This document shows, in pieces, positions 7,320 through 56,071 of a DNA stretch of 64,000 nucleotides. The DNA is taken from the NCBI GenBank assembly GCA_024710355.1, contig JANJUX010000033.1, positions 181,981-245,980 of the forward strand, read 5' to 3'. The number at the start of each line of letters is the position of its first letter. Position 1 is the stretch's first letter. The notes under the pieces were generated by a model that was not told the origin of the DNA, did no database searches, and saw only the letters and a list, made by a program, of their open reading frames with translations. The position numbers and the translations under genes were made by a program. The stretch comes from Candidatus Rifleibacteriota bacterium. GTDB taxonomy: Bacteria; Muiribacteriota; Ozemobacteria; Ozemobacterales; Ozemobacteraceae.

Positions 7320-7380
7320 CTGGTTCTCCGTTCATGGGCAATCTTGCTCACCTGCAACAGGTTAACAGATTAACAGCTAA

Positions 7381-7410
7381 AAAAAAAGACCCATGTCTGG
7401 AATGGGAGAG
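7381..7410 (-). terminator. short hairpin + U8 run after SRP RNA 3' end
   Basis: Minus-strand CCCAT-N7-ATGGG then TC-TTTTTTTT (plus-strand A8 at 7381-7388); weak 5-bp stem. Confidence 0.4.
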
Positions 7411-7412
7411 AA

Positions 7413-7682
7413 GTCGTGCACCTGACTTCGAACATACGTCAATGGTACGTATCCTGAACTATAGGCTCCGGACAGGCGCTGCCACATCACCCGAAAGCGA
7501 TCGTTTACCGTTGCTACCTTCCGATCCTGGCGGAGTTCACGGACTTTCGCCGTGTGGAACCCGTCCTTCGATGCTTCTAGAACTGGCCGTTGCCACCAAC
7601 AATGCCCTCTGTCAGGAATTCGATCCGCCTGGCGGGGATTTGCGGTGGATAAGGGACCCCGAGCCCCCCATCTAGCACGACA
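7413..7682 (-). ncRNA. ffs: signal recognition particle RNA, large Bacillus-type with Alu domain
   Basis: Minus-strand 5' GUCGUGCUAGAUGGGGGGCUCGGGGUCCCU...CCGCAAAUCCCCGCCAGGCGGAUCGAAUUCC aligns with B. subtilis scRNA Alu domain; domain IV motif CCAGGAUCGGAAGGUAGCAAC; 3' end GGUGCACGAC pairs with 5' end; ~270 nt. Confidence 0.8.
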
Positions 7683-7683
7683 A

Positions 7684-7771
7684 CGGAAAGGGCGGGATTC
7701 GAACCCGCGGTGGAGTTGCCCCCACTCACGCTTTCCAGGCGTGTGCCTTAGACCAACTCAGCCACCTTTCC
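7684..7771 (-). tRNA. tRNA-Ser (anticodon GGA)
   Basis: Cloverleaf with long variable arm; acceptor GGAAAGG/CCTTTCC; anticodon loop CUGGAAA; no encoded CCA; 3' end abuts SRP RNA 5' end. Confidence 0.85.
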
Positions 7772-7806
7772 GATTGAGGGAAAATTAAAACCCTCAGAAA
7801 AGAGCA

Positions 7807-7882
7807 ACGCGCCCGAGAGGACTCGAACCTCTGGCCACCAGATCCGCAATCTGGTGCTCTATCCAAACTGAGCTACGGGCGC
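7807..7882 (-). tRNA. tRNA-Arg (anticodon GCG)
   Basis: GCGCCCGTAGCTCAGTTTGGATAGAGC...anticodon stem CCAGA/TCTGG with loop UUGCGGA...GGTTCGAGTCC T-arm; 76 nt. Confidence 0.8.
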
Positions 7883-7892
7883 AAATTCGCTT

Positions 7893-7981
7893 CGGAGAGA
7901 GGGGGATTTGAACCCCCGGTACCAGTTACCCAGTACGACAGTTTAGCAAACTGTTGGTTTAAGCCACTCACCCATCTCTCC
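7893..7981 (-). tRNA. tRNA-Ser (anticodon GCU)
   Basis: GGAGAGATGGGTGAGTGG...anticodon loop UUGCUAA, long variable arm, GGTTCAAATCC T-loop. Confidence 0.85.
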
Positions 7982-7992
7982 AGAGATGCAAT

Positions 7993-8075
7993 CGGAGGAA
8001 GTAGGATTCGAACCCACGGAGCTTTCACCCTGCGGTTTTCAAGACCGCCGCCTTAGACCACTCGGCCATTCCTCC
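7993..8075 (-). tRNA. tRNA-Ser (anticodon UGA)
   Basis: GGAGGAATGGCCGAGTGGTCTAAGGCG...anticodon loop CUUGAAA, variable arm, GGTTCGAATCC T-loop. Confidence 0.85.
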
Positions 8076-8080
8076 AGTGC

Positions 8081-8109
8081 CTTATAAAGATAGCACAGGT
8101 ACCGATCAA
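8081..8109 (-). promoter_or_regulatory. sigma70-like promoter for tRNA/SRP-RNA cluster (TTGATC-17-TATAAG)
   Basis: Minus-strand TTGATC (plus 8104-8109), 17-nt spacer, TATAAG (plus 8081-8086) ending 5 nt upstream of tRNA-Ser(UGA) 5' end. Confidence 0.45.
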
Positions 8110-8209
8110 AATCAACACTTTTTCGGCGGTTTTGTCTGACGAATCTCAACAATGTACAGCCAGTTTTTCGCAACGCCACTGCAATAAACCGCAAAAAATC
8201 CTGGTCCCG

Positions 8210-8252
8210 AAAATAAAAATTCCCGCTGTCCGTAGTTGCGGATAGCGGGAAT
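8210..8252 (-). terminator. rho-independent terminator after ftsB
   Basis: Minus-strand ATTCCCGCT-N16-AGCGGGAAT hairpin followed by TTTTTATTTT. Confidence 0.6.
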
Positions 8253-8266
8253 CTGGCTTTCCTGTC

Positions 8267-8662
8267 TCAGGGAGCTTCTGCTGCCGGTGTGGCCGGGTCT
8301 GGAGATGAAACCGGAGCCTGAGGCGCCGGGGCAGCCTGACTACCCTGTTCATTCTTTTCGTTGATCGTGTAAATCACGAGTTCTTCGGGTTTAACCAGTC
8401 CAAGGCGCTCACGCGCCAGCCTTTCGATGCCTTCGGGAGTAGAAAGCATTTCAAGATTCTGTTTCAGATGCCGGTTTTCGCGTTCGAGCGCTTCGATGCG
8501 TTCACGCAGCTCAGCCTCGCGCTGCAGCAGTGTGCGGATATTGTTGTAGCGGACAAGATAGGTTATCGACAGAGCAACACAGAATACCACCGACAGAATG
8601 AACATGATTTCTGTCGAAAACCGCACACGTTTACGTTTGACCGGCACTTTTTCTTCGTTCAT
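8267..8662 (-). CDS. ftsB: septum formation initiator FtsB/DivIC family
   Basis: 131 aa; single N-terminal TM (IMFILSVVFCVALSITYLV) followed by coiled coil (LLQREAELRERIEALERENRHLKQNLEML); Pro/Ala-rich tail. Confidence 0.65.
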   Translation of the reverse strand: MNEEKVPVKRKRVRFSTEIMFILSVVFCVALSITYLVRYNNIRTLLQREAELRERIEALERENRHLKQNLEMLSTPEGIERLARERLGLVKPEELVIYTINEKNEQGSQAAPAPQAPVSSPDPATPAAEAP

Positions 8663-8734
8663 GAACCGTTTACCCTTGCCAGAAATTTAAATGAAACGGC
8701 TGCCTCCCTGAACCAGAGAGGCAGCCCGGTTTTA

Positions 8735-11440
8735 TCAGTCGGCAGTCTCTTCTTTCGACGGAATTCTGACGACAGAGATCAGCCTGTCATCGCCATCGAG
8801 AGTTATCAGCTTGACCCCGGAAGCGGCGCGACCGGTGTTTCTGATCGAATCGGCGCTCAGACGCACGACTTTGCCGTTGGTGGTGACGACCATCAGCTCA
8901 TCACCCTCGAACATGCGTTTGATTGCGAGAACTTCGCCGGTCTTTTCCATGATCTTGAGGTTGATGACGCCTTTACCACCACGATGAGTAACGCGATAGC
9001 TGTTGACATCGGTCTTTTTGCCGAAACCAAGTGCCGAAACGGTCAGCAGCCGGCCTTCATAGCGACCATCATCTTCGACTGGCGGCGCGGTTTCGCCATC
9101 AGGGGCCTCGTCGATGATTTCGTCTTCGATAACTTCATCGACGACTTCATCAATTACCTCATCGATCGGCGCTTCTGCTTCGGCAGCCACGGTAATATCG
9201 CCATCAACAGACGGCACTACGGCAACATGCAGCTCGCCATCGTCATCTTTCTTGCGGCTGAAAACTTCCATGCCGATTACTTCATCGTTCTTGTCTCTGA
9301 AGGTGATGGCTTTAACCCCACGGGCTGTTCTGCCCATGACGCGCACTTCACTTTCAGGGAAACGTATGGCATAGCCGTTGCGGGTCGCAATAACCACCTG
9401 CTCGCCGCCGTTGATTGGTTTGACGCCAATCAGTTCATCGCCCTCGTCAAGCTTGAGTGCAATTATGCCGCGAGCCATCGGTCTGGCAAACGCCGACAGA
9501 ATGACCATCTTCGAGACACCCTTGCGGGTTACCATGAACAGACGGCGTGTATCGTCAAACTTCTTGATCGGCAGAATCGCAGTGAGGGTTTCGTTCTCTT
9601 CGAACTGCAGCAGATTGACCATGGCGCGGCCACTTGCCTGGCGACCGCCTTCGGGTATCTGGTAACCCTTGATCCAGTGCACTTTGCCGATCGAAGTGAA
9701 TACCAGCAGATATGAATGGGTCGTGGCCAGGAACATGTGTTCGACGACATCTTCGTCTTTGACGCCCATGACATTGCTGCCCTTGCTGCCACGGCTGATC
9801 TGCCTGAAAACGCTCGGTGACATGCGTTTGACATAGCCGTTCTTGGTCAGGGTGATGATGATATCTTCTTCCTGCATCAGATCTTCGACATTCAGTTTTT
9901 CGGCTGAAGATCTGGTAATCTTGCTGCGGCGGGCATCACCGAAGCGGGCTTTGATGTCGAGGAGTTCTTCTTTGATGATTTCTCTGACCTTCTCGTCTGA
10001 TTCGAGAATGCCTTTGAGCTTCTGGATCAGAGCCAAAGTATCGTGATATTCGGCGATGATCTTGTCGCGTTCGAGGCCTGTCAGTCTCTGCAGTCGCATT
10101 TCAAGAATCGCCTGTGACTGTTTATCAGAGAGCATGAAGGTATCCATGAGGCCCTGTTTGGCTTCATTCGGATCTTTAGCTGATTTGATCAGCTCGATGA
10201 CCGCGTCGAGATTGTCTAGAGCGATCGTCAAACCTTCGAGAATGTGGGCCTTTTCTTCGGCCTTGCGCAGCTGGAACACGGTTCTGCGGCGAATGACTTC
10301 GCGGCAGTGATTGACATAGTGTTCCATCATTTGCTTGAGATTGAGAACCAGCGGGCGGTTGTCGACGAGAACCAGGTTGATTACGCCGAAACTGCTCTGC
10401 ATCTGAGTGTGCTTGTACAGCTGGTTGAGAATGACATCGGTATTAACGCCCTTGCGCAGTTCGATACAGACGCGCATACCTTCGCGGCTCGACTCATCGC
10501 GCAGGTCGGTAATGCCATCGATCTTCTTTTCCTTGATCAGATCGGCGATTGATTTGACCAGGCGGGCTTTGTTGACCTGATAAGGCAGTTCGGTAACGAC
10601 GATGCGGTCGCGGCCCTTGTTGAATTCTTCAATTTCGACGACCGAACGAACGACGATGCTGCCGCGGCCGGTTTTGAAGGCTGATTCGATGCCATCGGTA
10701 CCCATGATGATACCGCCGGTCGGGAAATCCGGGCCGGGAATATGGTTCATCAGCTCATCAATGGTTACTTCAGGGTTGTTGATCAGCTGAATCAGGCCGT
10801 CAATGACCTCCGCAAGGTTATGAGACGGCATGTTGGTCGCCATACCAACCGCGATGCCTGATGAACCGTTGACCAGCAGATTCGGAAACTTGCTGGGCAG
10901 CACGATCGGCTCATTCAGAGAGCCATCGAAGTTCGGCATCCATTCAACCGTTTCCATCTCGATGTCTTTGAGCATTTCTTCTGCCAGGGCTTCGAGACGG
11001 GCTTCGGTATAACGCATTGCCGCTGCTTCATCGCCGTCAACTGAACCAAAGTTACCGTGACCGTTGATCAGCGGGTAACGCAAGCTGAAATCCTGGGCCA
11101 TGCGAACGAGGGTGTCATAAACAGCTGAGTCGCCGTGCGGGTGATACTTACCAAGAACTTCCCCGACGGTGCGGGCTGATTTGACGAAAGGTTTCTTGCT
11201 GGTGATGCCCTGATCGAACATTGCATATAGCACACGGCGGTGAACCGGCTTCAGGCCATCTCTGACGTCTGGCAGAGCGCGGCCGACGATTACGCTCATC
11301 GCGTAATCGATGTATGAAGCCTTCATATCGTCTTCGATATTGATATGTCTGATGCCTGTCGTTGGTGGCGGAGGAGGAGGAGGAGGAGTCTCGATACCGC
11401 CAGTTTCCTCGACAGGAATATTTTCGTTGATGTTATCCAT
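8735..11440 (-). CDS. gyrA: DNA gyrase subunit A
   Basis: [33 protein letters not shown]...catalytic Tyr region; CTD beta-pinwheel; unusual N-terminal tail with PPPPPPPP and acidic CTD insertion. Confidence 0.95.
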
Positions 11441-11456
11441 TATGAAAGCCCCTTAA

Positions 11457-13481
<2,025 letters not shown>

Positions 13482-13766
13482 TTAATATCGATACTGGGAA
13501 CTCATCTTCCATTCAGCCTTCAGGTATTCTGCCTGCTGAAAGGGGTGACAGATTCCGCGTTGTGCAAGTGCTTCGGGGGAAAGGGTCGAACCGATCCAGC
13601 GACCATCAACGGTTTTGATGGCTGCCCGGTATTCGCCCGCATCTTCAAGCTTCGGCAGAGTCTCGACCACACGCCGGCGCGTGGCTTCATCGACAGTCTG
13701 CAGATTTATGATCAATTCACAGGTCTTGAAATCAACGAACTCATTTTGACCGATATGAATCAGCAT
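13482..13766 (-). CDS. DUF370 (RemA/RemB-like) protein
   Basis: MLIHIGQNEFV...AAIKTVDGRWIGSTLSPEALAQR matches RemA pattern (I.IG.....LIDATYGRRTR.VII.....LS...PETVAQR); same position upstream of gyrB as B. subtilis remB (yaaB). Confidence 0.6.
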   Translation of the reverse strand: MLIHIGQNEFVDFKTCELIINLQTVDEATRRRVVETLPKLEDAGEYRAAIKTVDGRWIGSTLSPEALAQRGICHPFQQAEYLKAEWKMSSQYRY

Positions 13767-14728
13767 TCTGGTTCTCCGGGTTTGATTGCCAGGTAAGCAT
13801 GCCAGCGTTCATCAGGCACCTCCTGGGTATTCAGATGTTCAAAATCCACTTCATCAGGCATGCAGCCGCTGAAAAGCATCATGCTGCGCACCATCTCTTT
13901 GCGCATGCGGGCTGCAGTCTCTTCGTCGTAATTCAACGAAAGATCGGCCGCCAGTTCCTGGATTAGGTTCAGGCTTTCATCGAGCAGTTCGGCACGAATT
14001 GCTTCGAACTCAACGATGGTAAGGCCGCTTTCGAATTCGCAAACTTCTTCAAGCGTCAGCCAGGGCATTTCTGAAATCAGCACCCTGGCCTTTAAAAGGT
14101 TGTCTTCGCGGGTTTTATAAACACACATCGCACAGACACCGTTTTTCGAGCGGGTTACTGCGGCACGGCACAACACACACAGTTTATAGCCGCGTTCTTC
14201 GAGACCCTTTAGTCTGGCGTTCAGCTTCTGCTGACAACGACGCATCTGTTCTGACAATTCCTGATCCTTTAACTCTGCCATTGGCACTTCATCTTCGCTC
14301 TGCCAGTCGGGCCAGGTGGCTTCTTTAACCATCTTTTCGACTTCCGGCGGTATTACCCCCGGCTTGCCGACCACTTCGCCGATTTTCATCTCGGGGAAAA
14401 GCTCATTAAGCTTCTCGATAATTCTGGCTTTGAGAAACACCAGTGTCTGCATCCACTGGCTGTCGGCTACCGCAAGATAGAGGCGGCCCTTGATCAGACG
14501 GGTCGGGCAGGTTTTGGCGGCCAGCTGCAAACCGACAACGTCTTTCCAGGCGTTGATGAGTTTGCCAAGCGTAACCAGCTCTTTTGCCGTCAGCACAAAG
14601 CGCTGGCGGTTCTCAGACGCACGAAAGGTGGCTTCGCGCATGCCTGACAAGGCTTTGACCAGAGAGAAGCTCGCGGGTTTCGTGCCGCCGACTCTCCGGT
14701 TCGCTGCAGTCTGCTTGAAGGTTTCCAT
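13760..14728 (-). CDS. dciA: DciA-like DUF721 protein with C-terminal zinc-ribbon extension
   Basis: N-terminal ~110 aa resemble DUF721 (as Mtb Rv0004 between recF and gyrB); C-terminal CVLCRAAVTRSKNGVCAMC CxxC-N13-CxxC; overlaps DUF370 by 7 nt. Confidence 0.55.
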   Translation of the reverse strand: METFKQTAANRRVGGTKPASFSLVKALSGMREATFRASENRQRFVLTAKELVTLGKLINAWKDVVGLQLAAKTCPTRLIKGRLYLAVADSQWMQTLVFLKARIIEKLNELFPEMKIGEVVGKPGVIPPEVEKMVKEATWPDWQSEDEVPMAELKDQELSEQMRRCQQKLNARLKGLEERGYKLCVLCRAAVTRSKNGVCAMCVYKTREDNLLKARVLISEMPWLTLEEVCEFESGLTIVEFEAIRAELLDESLNLIQELAADLSLNYDEETAARMRKEMVRSMMLFSGCMPDEVDFEHLNTQEVPDERWHAYLAIKPGEPEC

Positions 14729-14881
14729 TGGCCCTCTGGCTGTTGTCAGTCAATTCCCTCTCAGGGAAGAAGAGAGGGTGTAATATACTACTCTAAAATG
14801 ACTTTTTTTTCAAGTAGTAACAACAGTCGGAAATTAGCTTAAAAACGCCTCTCGTAGCGTTTTTAAACGGGCCGGCAATAC

Positions 14882-16294
14882 TTATTGCTTATCGGGGTCG
14901 ACAAAGCGTCTGACGCGCTCGAATTCTTCGGCAAATGCCTTTTCCTGTTTGAGCTTGCGGTTAACTTTATCGCAGGCGTGCATGACGGTCGTGTGGTCAC
15001 GGCCACCGAATTTGTCACCGATCTGATTGAGTGAGGCATCGGTAAAAATCTGACACAGGCGCATGGCAACCTGCCTCGGAAGCACGAGATTCTGCGAACG
15101 CCTTTTCCCGGTCAGTTCGCTTTCAGAAATATCGTAAAATTCGGCGACGCGTTTTTGAATCCAGGGAATACTGATCTTGCCACCGGCATTTTCACGCAGA
15201 ACGTCTTTGAGCACCTGGTCGACCATATCCTTGCTGACCGGTTTTCGCATGATGCCGGCAAAGGCGAGAACGCTGTTGAAGGCGCCCTCCAGATCGCGAA
15301 TATGCGATACGACGTTCTGAGCCATATACATGATGATCTCGTCTGATACTTCTACCATTGACTGGCTGGCGAATTTTTTAAAAATAGCGGCGCGCATTTC
15401 GAGGTCTGGTGGCTGAATATCTACTACCACACCCATACCAAATCTTGAGGCCAGGCGTTCTTCGAGTGATTCGCCACCGCGCTGAATCTTGCTTGGAGCT
15501 GAGTCAGAAGTGAGAACGATCTGTTTTTTCTGCTGAAAAAGTTCATTAAACGTGTGAAAGAATTCTTCCTGGGTCTGTTCTTTGCCGGCAAAAAACTGCA
15601 CGTCATCGATCAGAAGCAGGTCAATTTTGCGATATTTCGAACGAAACGCTTCGGCTTTTTTATCTTTCAGCGAATCGATGAATTCGTTGGTGAAAACTTC
15701 TGAAGAAAGATAGGCAATCTTGGCTTTTGGGTTGTTTTTAAGCAGTTCCTGGCCGATTGCCTGAATCAGATGGGTCTTTCCAAGGCCAACGCCGCTGTAA
15801 ATGAATACCGGGTTATGAAGGCTGCCGGGGTTTTTAGCTACTGCCTGGCAGACTGCGTAGGCAAACTGATTGCTCTTGCCGACGACAAACGAATCAAATG
15901 AATACTTGCTGTTAAACATGCCGTCATATCTGGCCGGAACTGTTTTAGCAGATTTTAGTGGTTCATCATCGGTTCTGATTGCCGGAATTGTCGGCTGCTG
16001 AGGTTTGCCTGCAGCCGGCCGGCCGGTTTTAGTCACCAGACGATATTTGAGAGCCGGCTTTTCGCCGCTGAGAATGCGGGTAATTACATCGGCATAACGC
16101 TTTTCTGCGAGGTCGCGGCAGAAATCGTTTGCGGCTTCCATGACCAGATGGTCGCCTTCAATAGCTGCCGGCGTGATGGAACTGAGGAAAATCTTTGAAC
16201 TTGCCTTGTTTTTACTGCTTCCATCAGCCTGGATTTCTGTGGTGATTTTATTCCAGAGCGTATCGAGCGACGATATCATGTACAATGACCTCAC
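14882..16294 (-). CDS. dnaA: chromosomal replication initiator DnaA
   Basis: AAA+ Walker A IYSGVGLGKTHLIQAIG, DnaA domain IV DHTTVMHACDKV; DnaA boxes upstream. Confidence 0.95.
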   Translation of the reverse strand: MRSLYMISSLDTLWNKITTEIQADGSSKNKASSKIFLSSITPAAIEGDHLVMEAANDFCRDLAEKRYADVITRILSGEKPALKYRLVTKTGRPAAGKPQQPTIPAIRTDDEPLKSAKTVPARYDGMFNSKYSFDSFVVGKSNQFAYAVCQAVAKNPGSLHNPVFIYSGVGLGKTHLIQAIGQELLKNNPKAKIAYLSSEVFTNEFIDSLKDKKAEAFRSKYRKIDLLLIDDVQFFAGKEQTQEEFFHTFNELFQQKKQIVLTSDSAPSKIQRGGESLEERLASRFGMGVVVDIQPPDLEMRAAIFKKFASQSMVEVSDEIIMYMAQNVVSHIRDLEGAFNSVLAFAGIMRKPVSKDMVDQVLKDVLRENAGGKISIPWIQKRVAEFYDISESELTGKRRSQNLVLPRQVAMRLCQIFTDASLNQIGDKFGGRDHTTVMHACDKVNRKLKQEKAFAEEFERVRRFVDPDKQ

Positions 16295-50780: not shown

Positions 50781-50961
50781 AAGGGCAGCACAATAAGAGC
50801 GATTCGTCGTCTTTGTAGAGAAACCTGATCGTAGCCCATGTTCTTATATCATTAATATTAAACTCGATTTTTCAGCAAGAAACTTTAAAAAATAGAAAAT
50901 TTAAAATTAAAATTTTGCTTTCAATCTTTTCTGCTTTTTCTGGCATATTACTTTCTGCAAT

Positions 50962-51498
50962 ATGATAAAAATCAGCCAACAACTCGTGGAAAATTTTGCG
51001 GCCGGCGACATGAAGGCCGCCGCGCTGCTGTTCGAGCAGCTGCGTCGCCCGTTGTTTGCCTATTTTTATCGGCTCGGTGGCGACCGCTGTGTGGCCGAAG
51101 ACCTGTTGCAGGAAACCCTGCTGACGCTGCACAGCCGCATCGAGACCTTCAACCGCGACTGTGAATTCATGCCCTGGGCCTGGGCGATCGCCCGCAACAA
51201 GTTTTTTGAATTCAAACGCAGCCAGAGTCGTGTGACCCGCCTGCTGCCGCAGCTTGCCGGCGTGGTGAAGCCGGAGCAGAACTGTTTCAGCAACGATGTG
51301 CATTTCGCCACCGACCTGAGAAACTGCCTCAATGAACTGTCTGAGCCGACCCGAGAGGCTTTCGTGTTAAGGCATTTCCAGGGCCTGAGCTTTCAGGAAA
51401 TCGCCGATCTGCAGCAGGTGCCCCTGCCGACCGCCAAATCGCGCGTGCTTTTTGCCCTGAAAAAGTTACGCGAATACTTTAAAAGAGGTGAACGATGA
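50962..51498 (+). CDS. ECF (extracytoplasmic function) sigma-70 family factor
   Basis: Region 2 (ETLLTLHSRIETFN...FMPWAWAIARNKFFEFKR) and region 4 HTH (LSFQEIADLQQVPLPTAKSRVLFALKKLR). Confidence 0.85.
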   Translation: MIKISQQLVENFAAGDMKAAALLFEQLRRPLFAYFYRLGGDRCVAEDLLQETLLTLHSRIETFNRDCEFMPWAWAIARNKFFEFKRSQSRVTRLLPQLAGVVKPEQNCFSNDVHFATDLRNCLNELSEPTREAFVLRHFQGLSFQEIADLQQVPLPTAKSRVLFALKKLREYFKRGER

Positions 51499-51947
51499 AC
51501 AGCCGATGCCTTGATGAAGAGCAGCTGATCAGCCTTTACTATGACGAAGACGAGGCTGCCGCATGCAGAGAGCACATAAGAGAATGCCCGGCCTGTCAGC
51601 AGGCTTTCGCCGAAGTATGCAGCGAGCTTGCCGAAATCGACCTGCCGGTGCCCGATGGCGGCCACCGCGCCGTCGCCGAAGCACTCAAGCTCATCGGTCG
51701 GCAGCAACCGGCAGCGGATCGTGACGAAATCATGACCCTCGAAGAGGTCGCCGACTGGCTCAAGGTGGGTTCGCACGCCCTTGCCGGCATGCTGCACCAG
51801 CTGCCGCATTTCATCGTTGCCGGCCAGATAAGGTTCAACCGCCGGCTGCTCGAAAATCATCTGTTCAATCGCCGGTCTGAGGCTGAGAATAAGGCGCCAG
51901 ATCAGCCCCGGCAGCGTTTAAAAGTCGTTGGCGGCCGCGCCGCCTGA
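51495..51947 (+). CDS. zf-HC2 (ZAS-type) anti-sigma domain fused to excisionase-type HTH; no TM segment
   Basis: HIRECPACQ = H-x3-C-x2-C; C-terminal MTLEEVADWLKVGSHALAGMLHQLPHFIVAGQIRFNRRLLENHL resembles HTH_17/Xis; 4-nt overlap with sigma gene. Confidence 0.6.
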   Translation: MNSRCLDEEQLISLYYDEDEAAACREHIRECPACQQAFAEVCSELAEIDLPVPDGGHRAVAEALKLIGRQQPAADRDEIMTLEEVADWLKVGSHALAGMLHQLPHFIVAGQIRFNRRLLENHLFNRRSEAENKAPDQPRQRLKVVGGRAA

Positions 51948-51960
51948 AGGGAGACTGCCC

Positions 51961-53493
51961 ATGTCAGTAGTTTCAACCCGCAATCTCGAACTGTTCAGCC
52001 GCAAGTTCGGCAAAATGCTCGGTTCAGGTATTCCGCTGCTGAAGGCACTTGAACTGCTGCAACGCGAAGAGGGCGATTCGCCGCTGGGCGCCATTATCGG
52101 CCAGATCTGCAGCCGGGTTCGTGAAGGTTATACCTTTTCCAGCTGTATGAGCCTTTTTCCCGGCGTTTTCACCGAAGTATTCGTCGCCATGGTCAAGGCC
52201 GCCGAGAACCAGGGCCGACTCGATCAGGGCATGGTCGAAATCGCCGACAGCCTCGCTGACGGCACCCTCGAAGCCGGCCAGGGCGGCGGTGAAATCAACG
52301 AAGCTGCCGGTGCGGCCGAAGATGCCAATCTGCAGGTTATCAAGCTGGTTAACCGTGTTATTTCAGACGCGGTAAAAGAAAAGCTCGCCCGCGTCGTCTT
52401 TAAACCCGAACGTGACCACGTCAAGCTCAATGCTGCCAGGCAGAACAGCCTCGAAGCCCGCGAAAACTTCGATCACCCGACCTATGACCGTATCGTTGCA
52501 CGCATCAAGCTTATGTCGGCACTCGATATCAGCGAAACCCGCCTGCCGCAGGACGGTCGCATGCTGATCAAGGTCGAGAACGAGCTCGTCGATATCCGCG
52601 TGCAGCTGGTTCCGACGGTGTTTGGCGAGCAGATTCTGCTGTTTTTCAGCCGCCCCGATGAAGTTGCACCGCCTGTCTCGGCAGTTTTCCCCGATGAGGC
52701 GCAGCGAAAGCAGATCGTCGGACTGCTGCAGAACCTTAACCGTGGCCTGGTCATCTTTGCCGGCCCGCACGGTTCAGGCAAGACCACCAGCCGCGATACG
52801 GCCATGTCGATACTTAACGACGGCACCAGAGTCATTTTCGAAGTCGGGCGTATTTACAAGGCGATCGATGGCATCGGCTGCATTCAGGTCAAACCGCATA
52901 TCGGCATGACGATGCCGGCCGCCATCAGGGCTGCCGTGCGCGCCGAGGCACATGTGATCGTAGTCGAAGAGATCAGCGACGAAGAAACGGCCCTCGAATG
53001 TTTCAAAGCTGCCAACGACGGCATTCTCGTGCTGACCCAGATGCATGCCCGCAATTCTTCTGAAGTGTTCAGACAGCTTCTGAATCTGAAGGTGCCGCCA
53101 TTTCAGCTTTATGACGGCATTGGTACCGTGGTTTTCCAGATGCTGGTGCGCAATGTCTGCCCTGACTGCCGGCGCGAACTTGAATTCACGGCAAAAGATT
53201 TTGCCAGACTCAGTCTGGTCGATTTCAAACCCGGCCGTTACAGCGACAGCAAGGGCTGCGCCAGTTGCCGCAACTCTGGCTATCGTGGTATGCACCCGTT
53301 TTACGAAATCACCGTGCCGAACAAAAACCTCAAAGAGGCGATCATCAAAGGCGACAGCAATCAGATAACCCTTGCTCTCGAAGCCATGCATGGTACCTGT
53401 CTCGAAGCGAAAATCCGCACCTGGGTCGAAGAAGGCCACACCAGCCCGGCCGAAGCTGCCCGCATTCGCACGATTCTGTTCGCCCAATCCTGA
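51961..53493 (+). CDS. GspE/PilB-family secretion ATPase with N-terminal GspF-type (T2SSF) cytoplasmic domain fusion
   Basis: T2SSF-like LELFSRKFGKMLGSGIPLLKALELL...VFTEVFVAMVKAAENQGRLDQ; GspE N2/CTD RIKLMSALDISETRLPQDGRMLIKV...DIRVQLVPTVFGEQILL; Walker A GPHGSGKTT; tetra-Cys CPDC...CASC; AAGGGAG RBS. Confidence 0.7.
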   Translation: MSVVSTRNLELFSRKFGKMLGSGIPLLKALELLQREEGDSPLGAIIGQICSRVREGYTFSSCMSLFPGVFTEVFVAMVKAAENQGRLDQGMVEIADSLADGTLEAGQGGGEINEAAGAAEDANLQVIKLVNRVISDAVKEKLARVVFKPERDHVKLNAARQNSLEARENFDHPTYDRIVARIKLMSALDISETRLPQDGRMLIKVENELVDIRVQLVPTVFGEQILLFFSRPDEVAPPVSAVFPDEAQRKQIVGLLQNLNRGLVIFAGPHGSGKTTSRDTAMSILNDGTRVIFEVGRIYKAIDGIGCIQVKPHIGMTMPAAIRAAVRAEAHVIVVEEISDEETALECFKAANDGILVLTQMHARNSSEVFRQLLNLKVPPFQLYDGIGTVVFQMLVRNVCPDCRRELEFTAKDFARLSLVDFKPGRYSDSKGCASCRNSGYRGMHPFYEITVPNKNLKEAIIKGDSNQITLALEAMHGTCLEAKIRTWVEEGHTSPAEAARIRTILFAQS

Positions 53494-53515
53494 TTTTCTA
53501 AGAGCTCAATCAGAC

Positions 53516-53550
53516 GGTTATCAAAGCGCAGGCTGCGATAACCGTTTTTG
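53516..53550 (+). terminator. possible terminator GGTTATC-N14-GATAACC-GTTTTTG
   Basis: 7-bp inverted repeat followed by T5; lies between convergent genes. Confidence 0.4.
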
Positions 53551-53635
53551 TTACCTGTTTGTTTATCAGCGCAGATCGAATTTTTGGGCGTTAGACAGGG
53601 CGTCGAACCGATAAACGATCCTGGTTTTACAGCTT

Positions 53636-56071
53636 TTACCAGGTCTTTGGGCCGCGGCTCTGCAGAACACGCCTGATTTCGCGCAGCAGTTCCGCCGATG
53701 ACAGAGGTTTGTAGGCAAAGCCGGCGATGCCTTCCTGGGCTGCTTTTGTACGGTCAATCTGGTCTGAGTGCCCGGTGACAATGATTACCGGGGTTTCTGG
53801 CTTCAGCTGCAGAATCTTTCTGGCCATGGCGGCCCCGGTCATTTCTGGCATGGTCATGTCGGAAATGACCAGATCGAAAGCCTCAGGAGCTTGTTTAAAA
53901 GCTTCAAGGGCATTGACAGAACTTGAGAAGGTGGTGACCTGATAGCCAAAGCCCTTCAGAATTTCTGAGTTTACTTCAAGGATCATCGATTCATCATCAA
54001 CGAGCAGGATTCTCCCGCTGCCTGACAAAGGTTCCTGTGCTGGTTCCGGCAGGTTCTGGGGTATTATGTCGCTTTCTACCGCCGGAAAAAAGATTTCAAA
54101 AGTCGTTCCTTTTCCGACTTCTGAAAGAACTCTGATTTCGCCGCCGTGTTCTTTGACTATGCCATGCACAACGGCAAGGCCCATACCCGAACCCTTGAAT
54201 TTTTCCTTGGTGGTGAAAAATGGCTCGAAGATTCTCGGCAGATTTTCCGGGGTGATACCATGCCCTGTATCTGAAACCGCCAGTTTAAGATACTGTCTGG
54301 TTTTGTCGCAGGCAGCACTGCTTAATCCTTCGGGCAGAAGCGACTCTGAAACCTCTATTTTGAGACTGCCGGGTTCACCCGCCAACGCATGCATTGAATT
54401 AGTGCATAGATTCATCAGAATCTGGTTGACCTGATTGCTGTCGGCGAGTATTTTGCCCTGCGAAAGCCACACTTCTTCGATTTTCATGGTCGATGGCAGG
54501 GTTGGGCGCAGCATTTTGATCGCATCTCTGGCTTCATCTGCCAGACAGACGACTTTCTTTTCCGATACATTTTTGCGACTGAAGGCAAGAATCTGTCTGA
54601 CGAGATTTTTGGCTCTTTCTGCCGCCATTTCAATGTTTTCAAGATTCTTGAGCATTGCAGTCTGGTTGTTCAGTCGATTTCTTGCCATGCCAAGGTTCCC
54701 GATAATCACGAAAAGAATATTGTTGAAATCGTGGGCGATGCCGCCGGCCAACCTGCCGACCGCTTCCATTTTCTGGGTCTGCAGAAGCTCACTTTCAAGC
54801 TTTTTTTGCTCAGTAATGTCGTTGCCGATGCACAACATCTCTTTGAAACTGCCATTTTCATCGTAAATTGCCCGATTGGACCAGCGCACATAAACTCTTG
54901 CCCCATCGCCACAGAGATTTTCATTTTCGACGACGATATGGTTTGCCGGGTCTGAAAATACCGGTTCAATAATGGTTTTAATTTCCGTTCCGTCAGTCTG
55001 GGCATGTGGCAGAATTGTCTCGTAAATTGATTTGCCAATTAATTGTTCGGAACTGAATTTAAGCAGTTTTTGCCCGAACTGGTTGATAAAACATATTCGC
55101 TTTTCTGAATCGAGCCGCAGGATTACCGAGTTGGCCAGTTCGACAAGATTACGAAAATCCTTTTCCTGGGCGGCCAGTTCTTTGGTTTTCTGCTGCACCA
55201 GATGCTTCATCAGGCGCATGCCATAAAGGGTGAACCCGGTAATGATTATGAGAAGCGAAAGAACTACGCTGACCCATTTCGGAATGAAGCTTTTTCCCGG
55301 TTTTGCCGCCCCAAGCCAGAAATCCAGCTTTTCATGATAAAAAGAGCCCTCCACCGACTTCCATTTTTTGAGTTTCTTGTCGAGGCGCTCCAGCAGGTCA
55401 GCGTTGTAACCCTTCTTTGTCGCAAAAAAAACGTTGAATGGCGAAAATTGAATCGATGTCGATACCAGACCATGTTCATGGCAGAATCTCAGGCCGAAGT
55501 GCTGCGGTGCAACGCCTGCAACGGCTTTTCCCTGGGCCACCGCATCGAAAACTTCATGATGAGTCGCCAGCTCGATGATATTGCTTTTTCCGCCAAAACC
55601 GGCCAGCGTATCGATAAAATTCTGGCCGTTGATATCTTTTTTCATTATCGCCACATTTTTGCCGCGGAGGTCGAGAATGTTGTTGATGCCGCTGTCAGGG
55701 CGGGTAAAAACCTGACCCCAGATCAGCACTACCGGTTCATGGCTGAAATCCATGATTTCCTGGCGTTCCGGGGAAATGGCGACCGTGGTCATCAGGTCGA
55801 TCTCGCGATTCTGCAGCCTCTCGTAGCACTCATTCCAGCTTCCAGGCACAAAAACCGGGTGGCGGTCCGAAGTTTTGAACGCTTCTTTGATAAGATCTGT
55901 GTTAAAACCAGTCGCTTCATCGCTGCTGTCGTAAAAATTCAGCGGCTCGAGAGGAAAAACACCAACTCTGAAAATCTGTGCGTCTTCGCCGGCAACAACT
56001 GCACAGTTGATCAGGCCAAAAAATACCAGAATAAAAAGCAGGTATTTTCTCATTCTCTCCCTCAATTTCAA
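53636..56071 (-). CDS. hybrid sensor histidine kinase/response regulator with periplasmic solute-binding (SBP_bac_3-like) sensor and PAS domain
   Basis: Signal/TM, periplasmic SBP3-like domain, TM, PAS, HisKA (GIAHDFNN), HATPase_c (DTGHGI...GSGMGLAVV), C-terminal REC (LLVDDE...DLVISDMTMP). Confidence 0.85.
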   Translation of the reverse strand: MKLRERMRKYLLFILVFFGLINCAVVAGEDAQIFRVGVFPLEPLNFYDSSDEATGFNTDLIKEAFKTSDRHPVFVPGSWNECYERLQNREIDLMTTVAISPERQEIMDFSHEPVVLIWGQVFTRPDSGINNILDLRGKNVAIMKKDINGQNFIDTLAGFGGKSNIIELATHHEVFDAVAQGKAVAGVAPQHFGLRFCHEHGLVSTSIQFSPFNVFFATKKGYNADLLERLDKKLKKWKSVEGSFYHEKLDFWLGAAKPGKSFIPKWVSVVLSLLIIITGFTLYGMRLMKHLVQQKTKELAAQEKDFRNLVELANSVILRLDSEKRICFINQFGQKLLKFSSEQLIGKSIYETILPHAQTDGTEIKTIIEPVFSDPANHIVVENENLCGDGARVYVRWSNRAIYDENGSFKEMLCIGNDITEQKKLESELLQTQKMEAVGRLAGGIAHDFNNILFVIIGNLGMARNRLNNQTAMLKNLENIEMAAERAKNLVRQILAFSRKNVSEKKVVCLADEARDAIKMLRPTLPSTMKIEEVWLSQGKILADSNQVNQILMNLCTNSMHALAGEPGSLKIEVSESLLPEGLSSAACDKTRQYLKLAVSDTGHGITPENLPRIFEPFFTTKEKFKGSGMGLAVVHGIVKEHGGEIRVLSEVGKGTTFEIFFPAVESDIIPQNLPEPAQEPLSGSGRILLVDDESMILEVNSEILKGFGYQVTTFSSSVNALEAFKQAPEAFDLVISDMTMPEMTGAAMARKILQLKPETPVIIVTGHSDQIDRTKAAQEGIAGFAYKPLSSAELLREIRRVLQSRGPKTW

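What the first reader, a model, noticed from the sequence alone, without database searches (positions are those of the whole stretch)
50962..53493. Three-gene module: ECF sigma factor, cytoplasmic zf-HC2/HTH protein, and a GspF-domain::GspE secretion-ATPase fusion
The three ORFs are tightly coupled (a 4-nt overlap, then 13 nt with an AAGGGAG RBS), so they very likely form one operon. ECF sigma/anti-sigma pairs normally sit beside membrane anti-sigma factors or their regulon. Here the third gene is a PilB/GspE-family hexameric ATPase whose N1 domain is replaced by a single soluble GspF-type domain, and no other secretion or pilus genes (GspD/F/G, PilC/M/N/O/Q, pilins) are nearby. This suggests a cytoplasmic signalling or partner-switching device built from secretion-machine parts rather than a secretion system. 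I am not aware of a described system with this architecture, but cannot check databases.
Basis: partly seen in the sequence, partly recalled or inferred. Interest (0 to 1): 0.8.

Follow-up and report, generated by a model that had tools for sequence, protein, structure and literature searches.

The report
Sigma/anti-sigma operon with soluble secretion-type ATPase
A three-gene operon pairing a stress-type sigma factor and its cytoplasmic inhibitor with a soluble, membrane-free ATPase built from two secretion-machine parts recurs in at least four bacterial phyla with no secretion system beside it, which suggests an undescribed way of controlling a sigma factor.

Summary
Window 50962-53493 holds three tightly coupled genes. 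They encode an ECF sigma factor, a 150-aa soluble zinc-type (HxxxCxxC) anti-sigma with a C-terminal HTH_17 winged helix, and a 510-aa protein. In that protein one soluble GspF-type domain (T2SSF) replaces the N1 domain of a PilB/GspE ATPase.

New findings:
- The triad, in the same order and spacing, occurs in 20 of 22 distinct loci that encode such fusions. Flanks differ and GC ranges from 31 to 71%. Named records are Riflebacteria, Wallbacteria, Lentisphaerota and Planctomycetota.
- The fusion family is large: 69 of the best 147 representative clusters parsed, carrying one, two or three T2SSF domains.
- Each clade keeps its own ECF-type promoter motif upstream of the sigma gene.
- All Riflebacteria members, including this one, keep Walker A but have degenerate Asp-box, Walker-B and His-box motifs, while dN/dS is 0.06.
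- One relative has HTH_17 fused between the T2SSF and ATPase domains.
- No pilus or type II secretion gene lies anywhere in the 64-kb window.

The best reading is a cytoplasmic, autoregulated three-component ECF module in which the ATPase-like protein acts on the anti-sigma. That mechanism is inferred, not shown. I found no published description. I rate it a new variant of a known kind.

The parts
50921..50948 (+). ECF-type promoter-like motif TCAATC-N16-GCATAT. Its -10-like hexamer ends 13 nt before the sigma ATG, so the leader is very short and has no Shine-Dalgarno sequence.
   Evidence: It is the only perfect site in the window; 0.08 are expected by chance. The same motif occurs once per locus, in the same position, in 13 of 13 single-T2SSF-clade loci covering 158 kb on both strands.
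50962..51498 (+). ECF (group 4) sigma-70 family sigma factor, 178 aa, with sigma-2 and sigma-4 domains only.
   Evidence: Pfam Sigma70_r2 and Sigma70_r4_2. NCBIfam TIGR02937 sigma70-ECF scores 83 bits against a cut-off of 42.9. dN/dS is 0.16 against L008.
51495..51947 (+). Soluble anti-sigma factor, 150 aa. It has an N-terminal four-helix zinc-type anti-sigma domain (C5, H27-x3-C31-x2-C34), a flexible linker, a C-terminal HTH_17/excisionase-type winged helix (residues ~79-124, nt 51729-51866) and a disordered tail.
   Evidence: Invariant HxxxCxxC. Among orthologues, 12/13 match HTH_17 and 8/13 match zf-HC2. The AF2 model has helices 8-15, 19-30, 32-48 and 56-69, followed by a beta-alpha-alpha-beta-beta-alpha fold. 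The Foldseek matches to BldC (6AMA, TM 0.68, rmsd 1.9 A), Xis (4J2N) and RdfS fit this fold; their E-values are not significant. No TM segment. dN/dS is 0.12.
51947..51953 (+). Shine-Dalgarno sequence AAGGGAG, 7 nt upstream of the ATG of the third gene.
   Evidence: Read directly from the sequence. The 13-15-nt intergenic gap is conserved in all Riflebacteria loci.
51961..53493 (+). Soluble T2SSF::T2SSE fusion protein, 510 aa. A GspF/PilC-type cytoplasmic helical-bundle domain replaces the N1 domain of a PilB/GspE-type ATPase.
   Evidence: Pfam, NCBIfam and PDB sequence matches. AF2 model with pLDDT 86.8. Foldseek matches the PilB/PilF/EpsE core at TM 0.72-0.77. dN/dS is 0.06.
51994..52260 (+). 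T2SSF domain (residues 12-100), most similar to the first cytoplasmic domain of GspF/PilC.
   Evidence: Pfam PF00482 E 4.6e-16. TIGR02120 GspF profile positions 60-153. EpsF 2VMA/3C1Q and PilC 2WHN. Six helices in the model at residues 6-100. Conserved GSGIPL and ENQGxLD signatures.
52333..53460 (+). PilB/GspE N2 domain plus C-terminal ATPase domain (residues 125-500). Walker A GPHGSGKTT (52762-52788), RLPQDGR and the four-Cys zinc motif are intact. The Asp box is missing, Walker B reads VVEEISD instead of VGEIRD, and the His box reads GILVLTQMHARN instead of GHLVLSTLHTN.
   Evidence: Motif tables against 9 canonical GspE/PilB proteins and 69 other fusion representatives. Residue-level alignment to PilB 5ZFR and 6OLJ.
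53512..53555 (+). Intrinsic-terminator-like hairpin (11+3 bp stem) followed by UUUUUGUU, 19 nt after the stop codon.
   Evidence: RNA fold of -19 kcal/mol, z = -2.48 against shuffles. The consensus scan missed it.

Best explanation
This is a self-contained, wholly cytoplasmic, positively autoregulated three-component ECF signalling module.

Shown:
- The three genes form one tightly coupled unit, running from a clade-conserved ECF-type promoter motif to a terminator-like hairpin.
- The first gene encodes an ECF sigma factor.
- The second encodes a soluble zinc-type anti-sigma whose extra C-terminal domain is an HTH_17 winged helix. That domain has lost the basic charge of a DNA binder.
- The third encodes a soluble PilB/GspE-type NTPase with one GspF-type cytoplasmic domain in place of N1.
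- The module is inherited as a unit across at least four phyla.

Inferred:
- The anti-sigma holds the sigma factor through its N-terminal helices.
- The ATPase-like protein, probably a hexamer like its relatives, is the third regulatory component. It engages the anti-sigma's C-terminal winged-helix domain or tail through its GspF-type domain(s) or N2 domain.
- Depending on its nucleotide state, it stabilises or breaks the sigma/anti-sigma complex.
- Freed sigma then transcribes the operon itself and an unidentified regulon.
- In Riflebacteria, including this window, the motor has become a nucleotide-binding switch or scaffold with little or no turnover. In Planctomycetota-type relatives it still looks like an active ATPase.
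For: - Conservation: the triad is present in 20 of 22 distinct loci encoding such fusions. Fusion identity runs from 94% down to about 30%, GC from 31 to 71%, and flanks are unrelated. The overlap and the 13-15-nt gap are fixed.
- Taxa: Riflebacteria, Wallbacteria, Lentisphaerota and Planctomycetota.
- Solubility: no TM segments.
- Context: no secretion genes in the window.
- Autoregulation: TCAATC-N16-GCATA[AT] occurs once per locus in 13/13 loci of the single-T2SSF clade, and TGAAAC-N17-19-GTT in 4/4 loci of the multi-T2SSF clade, always upstream of the sigma gene.
- Domain linkage: P0244 has HTH_17 (E 3.5e-14) fused between the T2SSF and T2SSE domains.
- The anti-sigma HTH has a net charge of -5 to +1 and an acidic 'recognition' helix, against +7 for the HTH in P0244.
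- Catalytic motifs are degenerate in all 33 Riflebacteria-clade clusters, while Walker A, the arginine-finger motif and the zinc site are invariant.
- Selection is strongly purifying, and strongest on the fusion gene.
Against: - No direct evidence of contact between the anti-sigma and the fusion protein.
- A conserved third gene could equally be the sigma factor's conserved target.
- The HTH_17 in P0244 is basic, like a DNA binder, so that fusion may not mirror the anti-sigma's acidic HTH.
- Two fusion loci lack the sigma/anti-sigma pair (L091, L096).
- L005 has a secretin gene just downstream.
- Many of the 20 loci are related Riflebacteria, so independent lineages number roughly nine.
- The sample of distant members is small: 12 look-ups.
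Confidence: 0.45

Rival explanations
1. The fusion protein is the output, not a regulator. Sigma and anti-sigma simply control its expression. The soluble ATPase, carrying a PilC/GspF-mimicking domain, then acts on a type IV pilus or type II secretion machine encoded elsewhere, for example as an alternative, competing or inhibitory motor subunit.
For: - Some ECF groups keep a conserved target gene beside them (general statement in PMC7826278).
- L005 has a secretin gene 294 nt downstream of the fusion gene. L093 has a PilM_2 gene 3 kb away.
- Most non-Riflebacteria members keep canonical catalytic motifs.
- The T2SSF domain is the part of GspF thought to contact the ATPase (established knowledge, not tested here).
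Against: - Apart from L005 and L093, none of the contexts examined has a pilus or T2SS gene within the flanks read (3.5-8 kb where the contig allows).
- Riflebacteria members have lost the Asp-box, Walker-B arginine and His-box residues expected of a working motor.
- The protein lacks the N1 domain that tethers GspE to GspL.
- The HTH_17 domain recurs with the fusion protein in two different arrangements.
Confidence: 0.25
2. This is an ordinary thiol or redox (RsrA-like) or metal switch. The zinc-type anti-sigma senses the signal by itself through its Cys/His site. The ATPase-like protein is an accessory, such as a chaperone or stabiliser, and is not needed for signalling.
For: - HxxxCxxC is invariant. 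C5 and C42 are also invariant in Riflebacteria.
- Soluble ZAS anti-sigmas such as RsrA work without partners (established knowledge).
- H94, H101 and H105 are invariant in the Riflebacteria HTH.
Against: - This does not explain why the fusion gene is kept with fixed spacing over such distances, nor why it is the most constrained of the three genes.
- C5 is missing in L005 and in two further orthologues (L094, L095) in the alignment.
- Many ZAS proteins, such as ChrR, are not redox sensors (established knowledge).
Confidence: 0.15
3. The module is DNA-directed. The HTH_17 domain binds DNA, so the second protein is a bifunctional repressor and anti-sigma. The ATPase works on DNA or on a nucleoprotein complex.
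For: - HTH_17 relatives such as BldC, Xis and RdfS are DNA binders.
- The HTH_17 in P0244 is strongly basic (+7) and canonical.
- The wing of the anti-sigma HTH keeps 2-3 arginines in most members.
Against: - The anti-sigma HTH domains are neutral to acidic overall. The helix that should read DNA carries up to -4 charge in the multi-T2SSF clade.
- PilB/GspE-family ATPases are not known to translocate DNA (established knowledge).
- Apart from the promoter motif, no repeated operator-like sequence was noticed in the upstream sequences printed. This was by inspection, not a formal repeat search.
Confidence: 0.1
4. Chance adjacency, or a gene-calling or assembly artefact.
For: None beyond the fact that every sequence comes from a metagenome assembly.
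Against: - The same architecture appears in independent assemblies from NCBI, ENA, JGI and Logan.
- dN/dS is 0.06-0.16.
- The AF2 model of the fusion is confident.
- 69 representative clusters share the architecture.
Confidence: 0.01

Closest known systems
ECF sigma / zinc-binding (ZAS, class I) anti-sigma pairs with a C-terminal sensor domain, such as sigmaE-ChrR of Rhodobacter and sigmaR-RsrA of Streptomyces
   Same: - A two-domain ECF sigma co-transcribed with an anti-sigma, with overlapping stop and start codons.
- An HxxxCxxC anti-sigma domain of about four helices.
- A soluble anti-sigma with an added C-terminal domain, as in ChrR.
- A likely autoregulated promoter.
   Different: - The C-terminal domain is an HTH_17 winged helix, not a cupin.
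- A third, obligately linked gene encodes a secretion-type NTPase.
- I could not assign an ECF group because ECF Hub was not available.
PilB/GspE/PilF extension or secretion ATPases (e.g. PDB 5TSG, 5ZFR, 1P9R, 5IT5)
   Same: - N2 plus C-terminal ATPase fold (TM 0.72-0.77).
- Walker A, the RLPQDGR arginine motif and the tetracysteine zinc site.
   Different: - No N1 / MshEN-type N-terminal domain; a GspF-type domain takes its place.
- No neighbouring machine genes.
- Asp box, Walker-B arginine and His box are degenerate in this lineage.
- It scores 231 bits against equivalog cut-offs of 630-676.
GspF/PilC inner-membrane platform proteins (cytoplasmic domain structures 3C1Q/2VMA and 2WHN)
   Same: One helical-bundle T2SSF domain carrying the family signatures (GSGIPL ... 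ENQGxLD). It is most similar to the first cytoplasmic domain.
   Different: - GspF/PilC has two such domains and three transmembrane helices.
- Here a single TM-free copy is covalently joined to the ATPase. Relatives have two or three copies.
Anti-sigma or sigma control coupled to secretion machinery: FlgM export by the flagellar type III apparatus, and SpoIIIAA (a secretion-ATPase homologue) needed for sigmaG activity in Bacillus (PMC2703783)
   Same: A secretion-superfamily ATPase or machine is functionally tied to the activity of a sigma factor.
   Different: - Those systems use real membrane channels, and their proteins are unrelated in sequence to this triad.
- Here everything is predicted to be soluble and no channel is encoded.
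- The resemblance is conceptual only.
Partner-switching modules (RsbV/RsbW, SpoIIAA/SpoIIAB)
   Same: A three-protein cytoplasmic logic in which a nucleotide-using protein decides whether the sigma factor is free.
   Different: - No STAS domain and no HATPase_c anti-sigma kinase.
- The anti-sigma here is a zinc-type ECF anti-sigma, and the nucleotide-binding protein is a separate PilB-like NTPase.

Membership tests
ECF (group 4) sigma-70 factors | Sigma-2 and sigma-4 domains only, about 170-200 aa, matching the ECF superfamily model | tested here: met
   Pfam Sigma70_r2 and r4_2, no region 3 or 1.1. TIGR02937 scores 83 bits against a cut-off of 42.9.
ECF (group 4) sigma-70 factors | Co-transcribed cognate anti-sigma and an autoregulated ECF-type promoter | tested here: inconclusive
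   The anti-sigma gene overlaps the sigma stop by 4 nt. Clade-specific conserved -35/-10-like motifs lie upstream of sigma in 13/13 and 4/4 loci. Promoter activity was not tested.
ECF (group 4) sigma-70 factors | Assignment to a defined ECF group (ECF Hub classification) | not testable with these tools
   No ECF Hub models were available. The NCBIfam equivalog and subfamily models all score below cut-off.
Class I / zinc-binding (ZAS) anti-sigma factors | HxxxCxxC motif within an N-terminal helical anti-sigma domain | tested here: met
   H27, C31 and C34 are invariant in 13 orthologues from all clades. The AF2 model has four helices between residues 8 and 69.
Class I / zinc-binding (ZAS) anti-sigma factors | Match to Pfam zf-HC2 above the gathering score | tested here: not met
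   The window protein scores 11.3 bits against a cut-off of 22.2. The L090 orthologue passes at 24.8 bits, and 8/13 orthologues match at E<=0.5, best 5.8e-7.
Class I / zinc-binding (ZAS) anti-sigma factors | Binds and inhibits the cognate sigma; binds zinc | not testable with these tools
   Needs biochemistry or a multimer prediction.
HTH_17 / excisionase-BldC type winged helix | Pfam PF12728 match and the beta-alpha-alpha-beta-beta-alpha fold | tested here: inconclusive
   The window protein scores 13.1 bits against a cut-off of 27. 12/13 orthologues match, best 4.4e-9. The model's fold is of this type. Foldseek gives BldC 6AMA at TM 0.68 and Xis 4J2N at TM 0.69, but with E>=0.06.
HTH_17 / excisionase-BldC type winged helix | Basic DNA-binding surface | tested here: not met
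   Domain net charge is 0 in the window protein and -5 to +1 across the family, against +7 for the canonical HTH_17 in P0244. This is a charge count only.
GspE/PilB secretion ATPases | N2 plus C-terminal ATPase fold with Walker A and the tetracysteine zinc motif | tested here: met
   Pfam T2SSE E 2.1e-63. PilB 5ZFR E 1.7e-47. Foldseek TM 0.72-0.77. GPxGSGKTT and four Cys are invariant.
GspE/PilB secretion ATPases | Canonical catalytic Asp box (EDPVE), Walker B (VGEIRD) and His box (GHLVxSTLHTN) | tested here: not met
   The window protein has FEV-GRIY, VVEEISD and GILVLTQMHARN. All 33 Riflebacteria-clade clusters are degenerate, whereas 9/9 canonical GspE/PilB proteins are not.
GspE/PilB secretion ATPases | N-terminal N1 / T2SSE_N (MshEN) domain and an equivalog-level score | tested here: not met
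   No PF05157 or PF22341. TIGR02533 scores 231 bits against 630, and TIGR02538 231 bits against 676.
GspE/PilB secretion ATPases | Encoded with platform, pilin and secretin genes | tested here: not met
   None in the 64-kb window. Among the related loci, only L005 (secretin) and L093 (PilM_2) have any such gene nearby.
GspF/PilC platform proteins | T2SSF domain | tested here: met
   PF00482 scores 59.4 bits against a cut-off of 25.2. EpsF and PilC cytoplasmic-domain structures match at E about 1e-10.
GspF/PilC platform proteins | Two T2SSF domains separated and followed by three transmembrane helices (about 400 aa) | tested here: not met
   One domain only, at residues 12-100. Maximum 19-residue hydropathy is 1.50. 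TIGR02120 scores 55 bits against 424.
Partner-switching systems (RsbV/RsbW type) | STAS-domain antagonist and HATPase_c anti-sigma kinase | tested here: not met
   Neither domain occurs in any of the three proteins.
Known anti-phage defence systems (PADLOC) | Match to any PADLOC protein model | tested here: not met
   No hit at E<=0.01 for any of the three proteins. There is only a sub-threshold NCBIfam MADS1 HTH match of 26 bits against a cut-off of 80.

The most novel reading that the evidence does not exclude
A widespread and so far undescribed mode of ECF sigma control. Parts of the type II secretion / type IV pilus motor (the PilB/GspE ATPase core plus the GspF/PilC cytoplasmic domain) have been taken out of the membrane machine and fused into a soluble oligomer. 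This oligomer acts as the nucleotide-dependent third component controlling a cytoplasmic zinc-type anti-sigma through its winged-helix domain. In Riflebacteria the motor has further decayed into a pseudo-ATPase switch.
Probability: 0.4. Interest if true: 0.85.

Novelty: new variant of a known kind. Interest (0 to 1): 0.72.

Why it matters
If the ATPase-like protein is a regulator, this adds a new input mechanism to the ECF sigma family. That family is among the most abundant bacterial signalling systems, and the inputs of its soluble anti-sigmas are mostly unknown. It would also be a clear case of secretion-motor parts reused for cytoplasmic signalling.

Independently of function, these proteins are natural, soluble, covalent fusions of the platform-protein domain to its ATPase. 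They could give structural biologists a tractable model for how GspF/PilC engages the GspE/PilB hexamer, which has been hard to capture with the membrane proteins.

The family offers a built-in comparison. Some lineages keep an intact catalytic site and the Riflebacteria lineage has a degenerate one.

Public annotations currently label all of these proteins as ordinary 'GspE / PilB / TadA' ATPases. That could wrongly suggest pili or type II secretion in these uncultured phyla.

Tried and rejected
No interface prediction was possible.
- The genome scan seeded with the T2SSF region returned 8 Riflebacteria fusion loci and 72 matches covering only the first ~100 query residues, presumably ordinary GspF/PilC genes.
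- The metagenome scan seeded with the two-T2SSF N-terminus returned almost only ordinary GspF genes. Its one fusion locus, L096, lacks the sigma pair.
- The third homologue search, with a diverse fusion alignment, was swamped by ordinary GspE. It did yield P0244, P0286 and P0289.
- The regulon search with the promoter motif found no further site in the window at 0-2 mismatches that looked convincing. It found none in 158 kb of related loci.
- The downstream hybrid histidine kinase was considered as a fourth component. I rejected it because it is syntenic only in the two closest relatives.
- A defence-system reading was rejected.
- Pseudogene decay of the degenerate ATPase was rejected, since dN/dS is 0.06.
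- Literature: ten full-text searches found no description of this triad or of natural soluble T2SSF::T2SSE fusions. The ECF re-classification paper does not mention ATPases in its main text, and its supplements were not available. A description there or in ECF Hub cannot be excluded.

Full report
**Observation**

The sigma gene is 50962-51498. The second gene is 51495-51947, overlapping it by the four bases ATGA. The third gene is 51961-53493, 13 nt after the second gene's stop codon, with AAGGGAG placed 7 nt before its ATG.

Pfam gives Sigma70_r2 and Sigma70_r4_2 for the first protein. For the third it gives T2SSF at residues 12-100 (E 4.6e-16) and T2SSE at residues 125-500 (E 2.1e-63), with no N1 / T2SSE_N domain. 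NCBIfam places the first protein in the ECF superfamily, at 83 bits against a cut-off of 42.9. It scores the third far below the GspE and PilB equivalog cut-offs, at 231 bits against 630 and 676.

PDB sequence searches agree. Residues from about 92-128 to 462-502, depending on the entry, align with the PilB, EpsE and PilF cores. Residues 4-97 align with the crystallised cytoplasmic domains of EpsF (2VMA/3C1Q) and PilC (2WHN). The AF2 model (pLDDT 86.8) shows a six-helix bundle, a low-confidence linker, and then N2 and C-terminal ATPase domains. These superpose on PilB, PilF and EpsE at TM 0.72-0.77.

**The middle protein**

On its own it is below Pfam thresholds. The family evidence is clear, however.
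- H27-x3-C31-x2-C34 is invariant in 13 orthologues from all clades.
- 12 of 13 orthologues match HTH_17 and 8 of 13 match zf-HC2.
- The AF2 model has four N-terminal helices, which is the layout of an anti-sigma domain. A flexible linker follows, then a winged helix, then a disordered tail.
- The winged helix resembles BldC, phage Xis and RdfS at TM 0.6-0.7, although the Foldseek E-values are not significant.

None of the three proteins has a transmembrane-like segment.

**Surroundings**

I scanned the larger ORFs across the whole 64-kb window. It is a chromosomal region that includes dnaA, a DciA-domain gene, gyrB, gyrA, dnaX, housekeeping enzymes, an RND efflux pump and a hybrid histidine kinase. 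It has no pilin, secretin, GspF/PilC, PilM/N/O or second GspE gene.

The operon appears to end at a hairpin followed by a U-tract at 53512-53555.

**Conservation of the triad**

Close homologues of the fusion protein with the T2SSF+T2SSE architecture form about 34 clusters at 90% identity. Those that carry an organism name are all Candidatus Riflebacteria / Rifleibacteriota.

In every Riflebacteria locus fetched, the three genes appear in the same order, with the 4-nt overlap and a 13-15-nt gap. The flanking genes differ from locus to locus. The downstream histidine kinase is syntenic only in the two nearest relatives.

An exhaustive profile search of 1.84 billion representatives showed that the architecture is much wider than this. 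I parsed domains for 147 of the 150 best representatives; the other three are fusions already in hand (P0004, P0031, P0034). Of the 147:
- 39 have one T2SSF domain followed by the ATPase.
- 26 have two T2SSF domains.
- 3 have three T2SSF domains.
- 1 has two T2SSF domains followed by two ATPase modules.

I looked up the genomic context of nine proteins outside the core Riflebacteria clade:

| Protein | Locus | Sigma + ~150-aa HxxxCxxC/HTH protein directly upstream? |
|---|---|---|
| P0034 | L005 | Yes |
| P0035 | L004 | Yes |
| P0143 | L088 | Yes |
| P0286 | L090 | Yes |
| P0139 | L092 | Yes |
| P0289 | L093 | Yes |
| P0266 | L094 | Yes |
| P0167 | L095 | Yes |
| P0244 | L091 | No |

L096, from the metagenome scan, also lacks the pair. 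In total, 20 of 22 distinct loci carry the triad. GC content ranges from 31 to 71%. Named sources are Riflebacteria, Wallbacteria, Lentisphaerota and Planctomycetota.

Many of the 20 loci are related, so I count roughly nine independent lineages.

**Promoter**

Upstream of the sigma gene, every single-T2SSF-clade locus has TCAATC-N16-GCATA[AT], ending 12-15 nt before the ATG. This includes a 31%-GC genome. The motif occurs once per locus in 13 of 13 loci, over 158 kb and both strands. In the window it lies at 50921-50948 and is the only perfect site; 0.08 are expected by chance.

The four multi-T2SSF loci instead share TGAAAC-N17-19-GTT, a classic ECF-like pattern. Clade-specific conservation of a -35/-10-like pair in front of the sigma gene is what autoregulation predicts. 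Promoter activity was not tested.

**Degenerate catalytic site**

I aligned the family against nine ordinary GspE/PilB proteins. All 33 Riflebacteria-clade clusters keep Walker A (GPxG[SC]GK[TS]T), and every sequence that covers the N2 region keeps LPQDGR. The four zinc cysteines are invariant in the 16-sequence family alignment.

| Motif | Canonical form | Riflebacteria clade | This window |
|---|---|---|---|
| Asp box | EDPVE | Lost or altered | FEV-GRIY |
| Walker B | VGEIRD | Arginine never kept; catalytic Glu position varies (E/D/S/G/N) | VVEEISD |
| His box | GHLVxSTLHTN | First His always lost; second His mostly lost | GILVLTQMHARN |

Most non-Riflebacteria fusions keep canonical motifs.

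From published mutational work on PilB, PilT and GspE, which I recall and did not test here, such changes abolish or cripple hydrolysis. The gene is not decaying, though. Against the closest orthologue, dN/dS is 0.06 for the fusion gene, 0.12 for the anti-sigma and 0.16 for the sigma factor.

**Domain linkage**

P0244 is a 628-aa relative with the order T2SSF (51-138), HTH_17 (142-190, E 3.5e-14), T2SSE (239-621), and it has no sigma gene upstream. The same small domain family therefore accompanies the fusion protein in two ways: on the neighbouring anti-sigma, or inside the fusion itself. This is a classic hint of a functional link.

There is a caveat. The HTH in P0244 is basic (+7), like a DNA binder. 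The anti-sigma HTH domains are neutral to acidic (-5 to +1), and the helix that would read DNA carries up to -4 charge. I take this to mean that the anti-sigma's winged helix is more likely a protein-binding surface. It also means the P0244 fusion may not be strictly equivalent.

**Mechanism**

The following is shown:
- A conserved, soluble, three-gene unit with a conserved promoter motif and a terminator-like hairpin.
- An ECF sigma factor.
- A zinc-type anti-sigma with an extra winged-helix domain.
- A PilB-like NTPase whose N1 domain is replaced by GspF-type domain(s).

The following is inferred:
- The NTPase, probably hexameric like its relatives, is the third regulatory component.
- It engages the anti-sigma's C-terminal part in a nucleotide-dependent way and so controls release of the sigma factor.
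- The released sigma factor then amplifies the operon.
- In Riflebacteria the NTPase would act as a binding switch rather than a motor.

I put this at 0.45. The main rival, at 0.25, is that the fusion protein is the sigma factor's conserved output and acts on a pilus or T2SS machine encoded elsewhere. The secretin next to L005 and the intact motifs in other phyla speak for that rival. The lack of machine genes in nearly all contexts, the missing N1 domain and the degenerate site in Riflebacteria speak against it. I rate an RsrA-like self-sufficient redox switch at 0.15 and a DNA-directed role at 0.10. Chance or artefact is excluded.

**Comparison with known systems and novelty**

The sigma/anti-sigma pair is a normal ECF/ZAS pair in its defining features. 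The third protein fails the membership tests for a working GspE/PilB: no N1 domain, non-canonical catalytic boxes, no machine genes and sub-threshold equivalog scores. It also fails the tests for GspF/PilC, having one domain and no TM helices. It is not a partner-switching system in the strict sense, because it has no STAS domain or anti-sigma kinase. It matches no PADLOC defence model.

Ten full-text literature searches found no description of this triad or of natural soluble T2SSF::T2SSE fusions. The main text of the ECF re-classification paper does not mention such a neighbour. Its supplements and ECF Hub could not be checked, so prior listing there remains possible.

I rate this a new variant of a known kind: an ECF module with a new type of third component.

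Noticed in passing
window 5535-16294: Replication-origin neighbourhood on the minus strand: dnaX (5535-7319), four tRNA genes (7683-8076; Ser, Arg, Ser, Ser), gyrA (8735-11440), gyrB (11457-13469), a 322-aa DciA-domain protein (13760-14728) and dnaA (14882-16294). The triad therefore lies about 35 kb from dnaA on a chromosome, not on a mobile element.
   Followed up: partly
window 32802-36743: A 1313-aa ORF combines Vps62, Fascin/FRG1-like and DUF7910 domains. This is an unusual, eukaryote-flavoured domain mix for a bacterium.
   Followed up: no
window 50921-50964, and the same position in L001, L003, L006, L008-L015, L088 and L092: The conserved -10-like hexamer ends only 12-15 nt before the sigma ATG, and no Shine-Dalgarno sequence is visible. 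The sigma mRNA may be leaderless or nearly so in all these lineages.
   Followed up: partly
window 53636-56071 (minus strand): An 811-aa hybrid histidine kinase with a periplasmic SBP_bac_3 domain, PAS, HisKA, HATPase_c and a receiver lies convergent to the triad. It is syntenic only in L008 and L009. Unrelated two-component genes also sit next to the triad in L001, L092 and L094, which may or may not be coincidence.
   Followed up: partly
L088 85-4161: In a 31%-GC genome, the anti-sigma is split into 97-aa and 52-aa ORFs, apparently by a frameshift or assembly error. Two tandem fusion genes (504 and 501 aa) follow the sigma gene.
   Followed up: partly
L005 4524-6284; L093 10099-11829: A secretin gene lies 294 nt downstream of the fusion gene in L005. 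A PilM_2 gene lies about 3 kb downstream, on the other strand, in L093. These are the only pilus or T2SS-type neighbours seen among the fusion contexts examined.
   Followed up: partly
proteins P0140-P0152, P0157, P0171 and P0138: The representative search also turned up 14 clusters of ~1000-aa proteins with two PilB/GspE ATPase modules in tandem. One 1047-aa protein has two T2SSF domains followed by two ATPase modules.
   Followed up: no
window 51495-51947 (anti-sigma residues 42, 94, 101, 105): C42 and three histidines in the winged-helix domain (H94, H101, H105) are invariant in the 17 Riflebacteria-clade sequences but not in other clades. This could be a second metal site.
   Followed up: no
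L096 1545-5029: One two-T2SSF fusion gene sits directly after an FGE-sulfatase gene, with no sigma/anti-sigma pair. The module is therefore not obligatory for every family member.
   Followed up: partly
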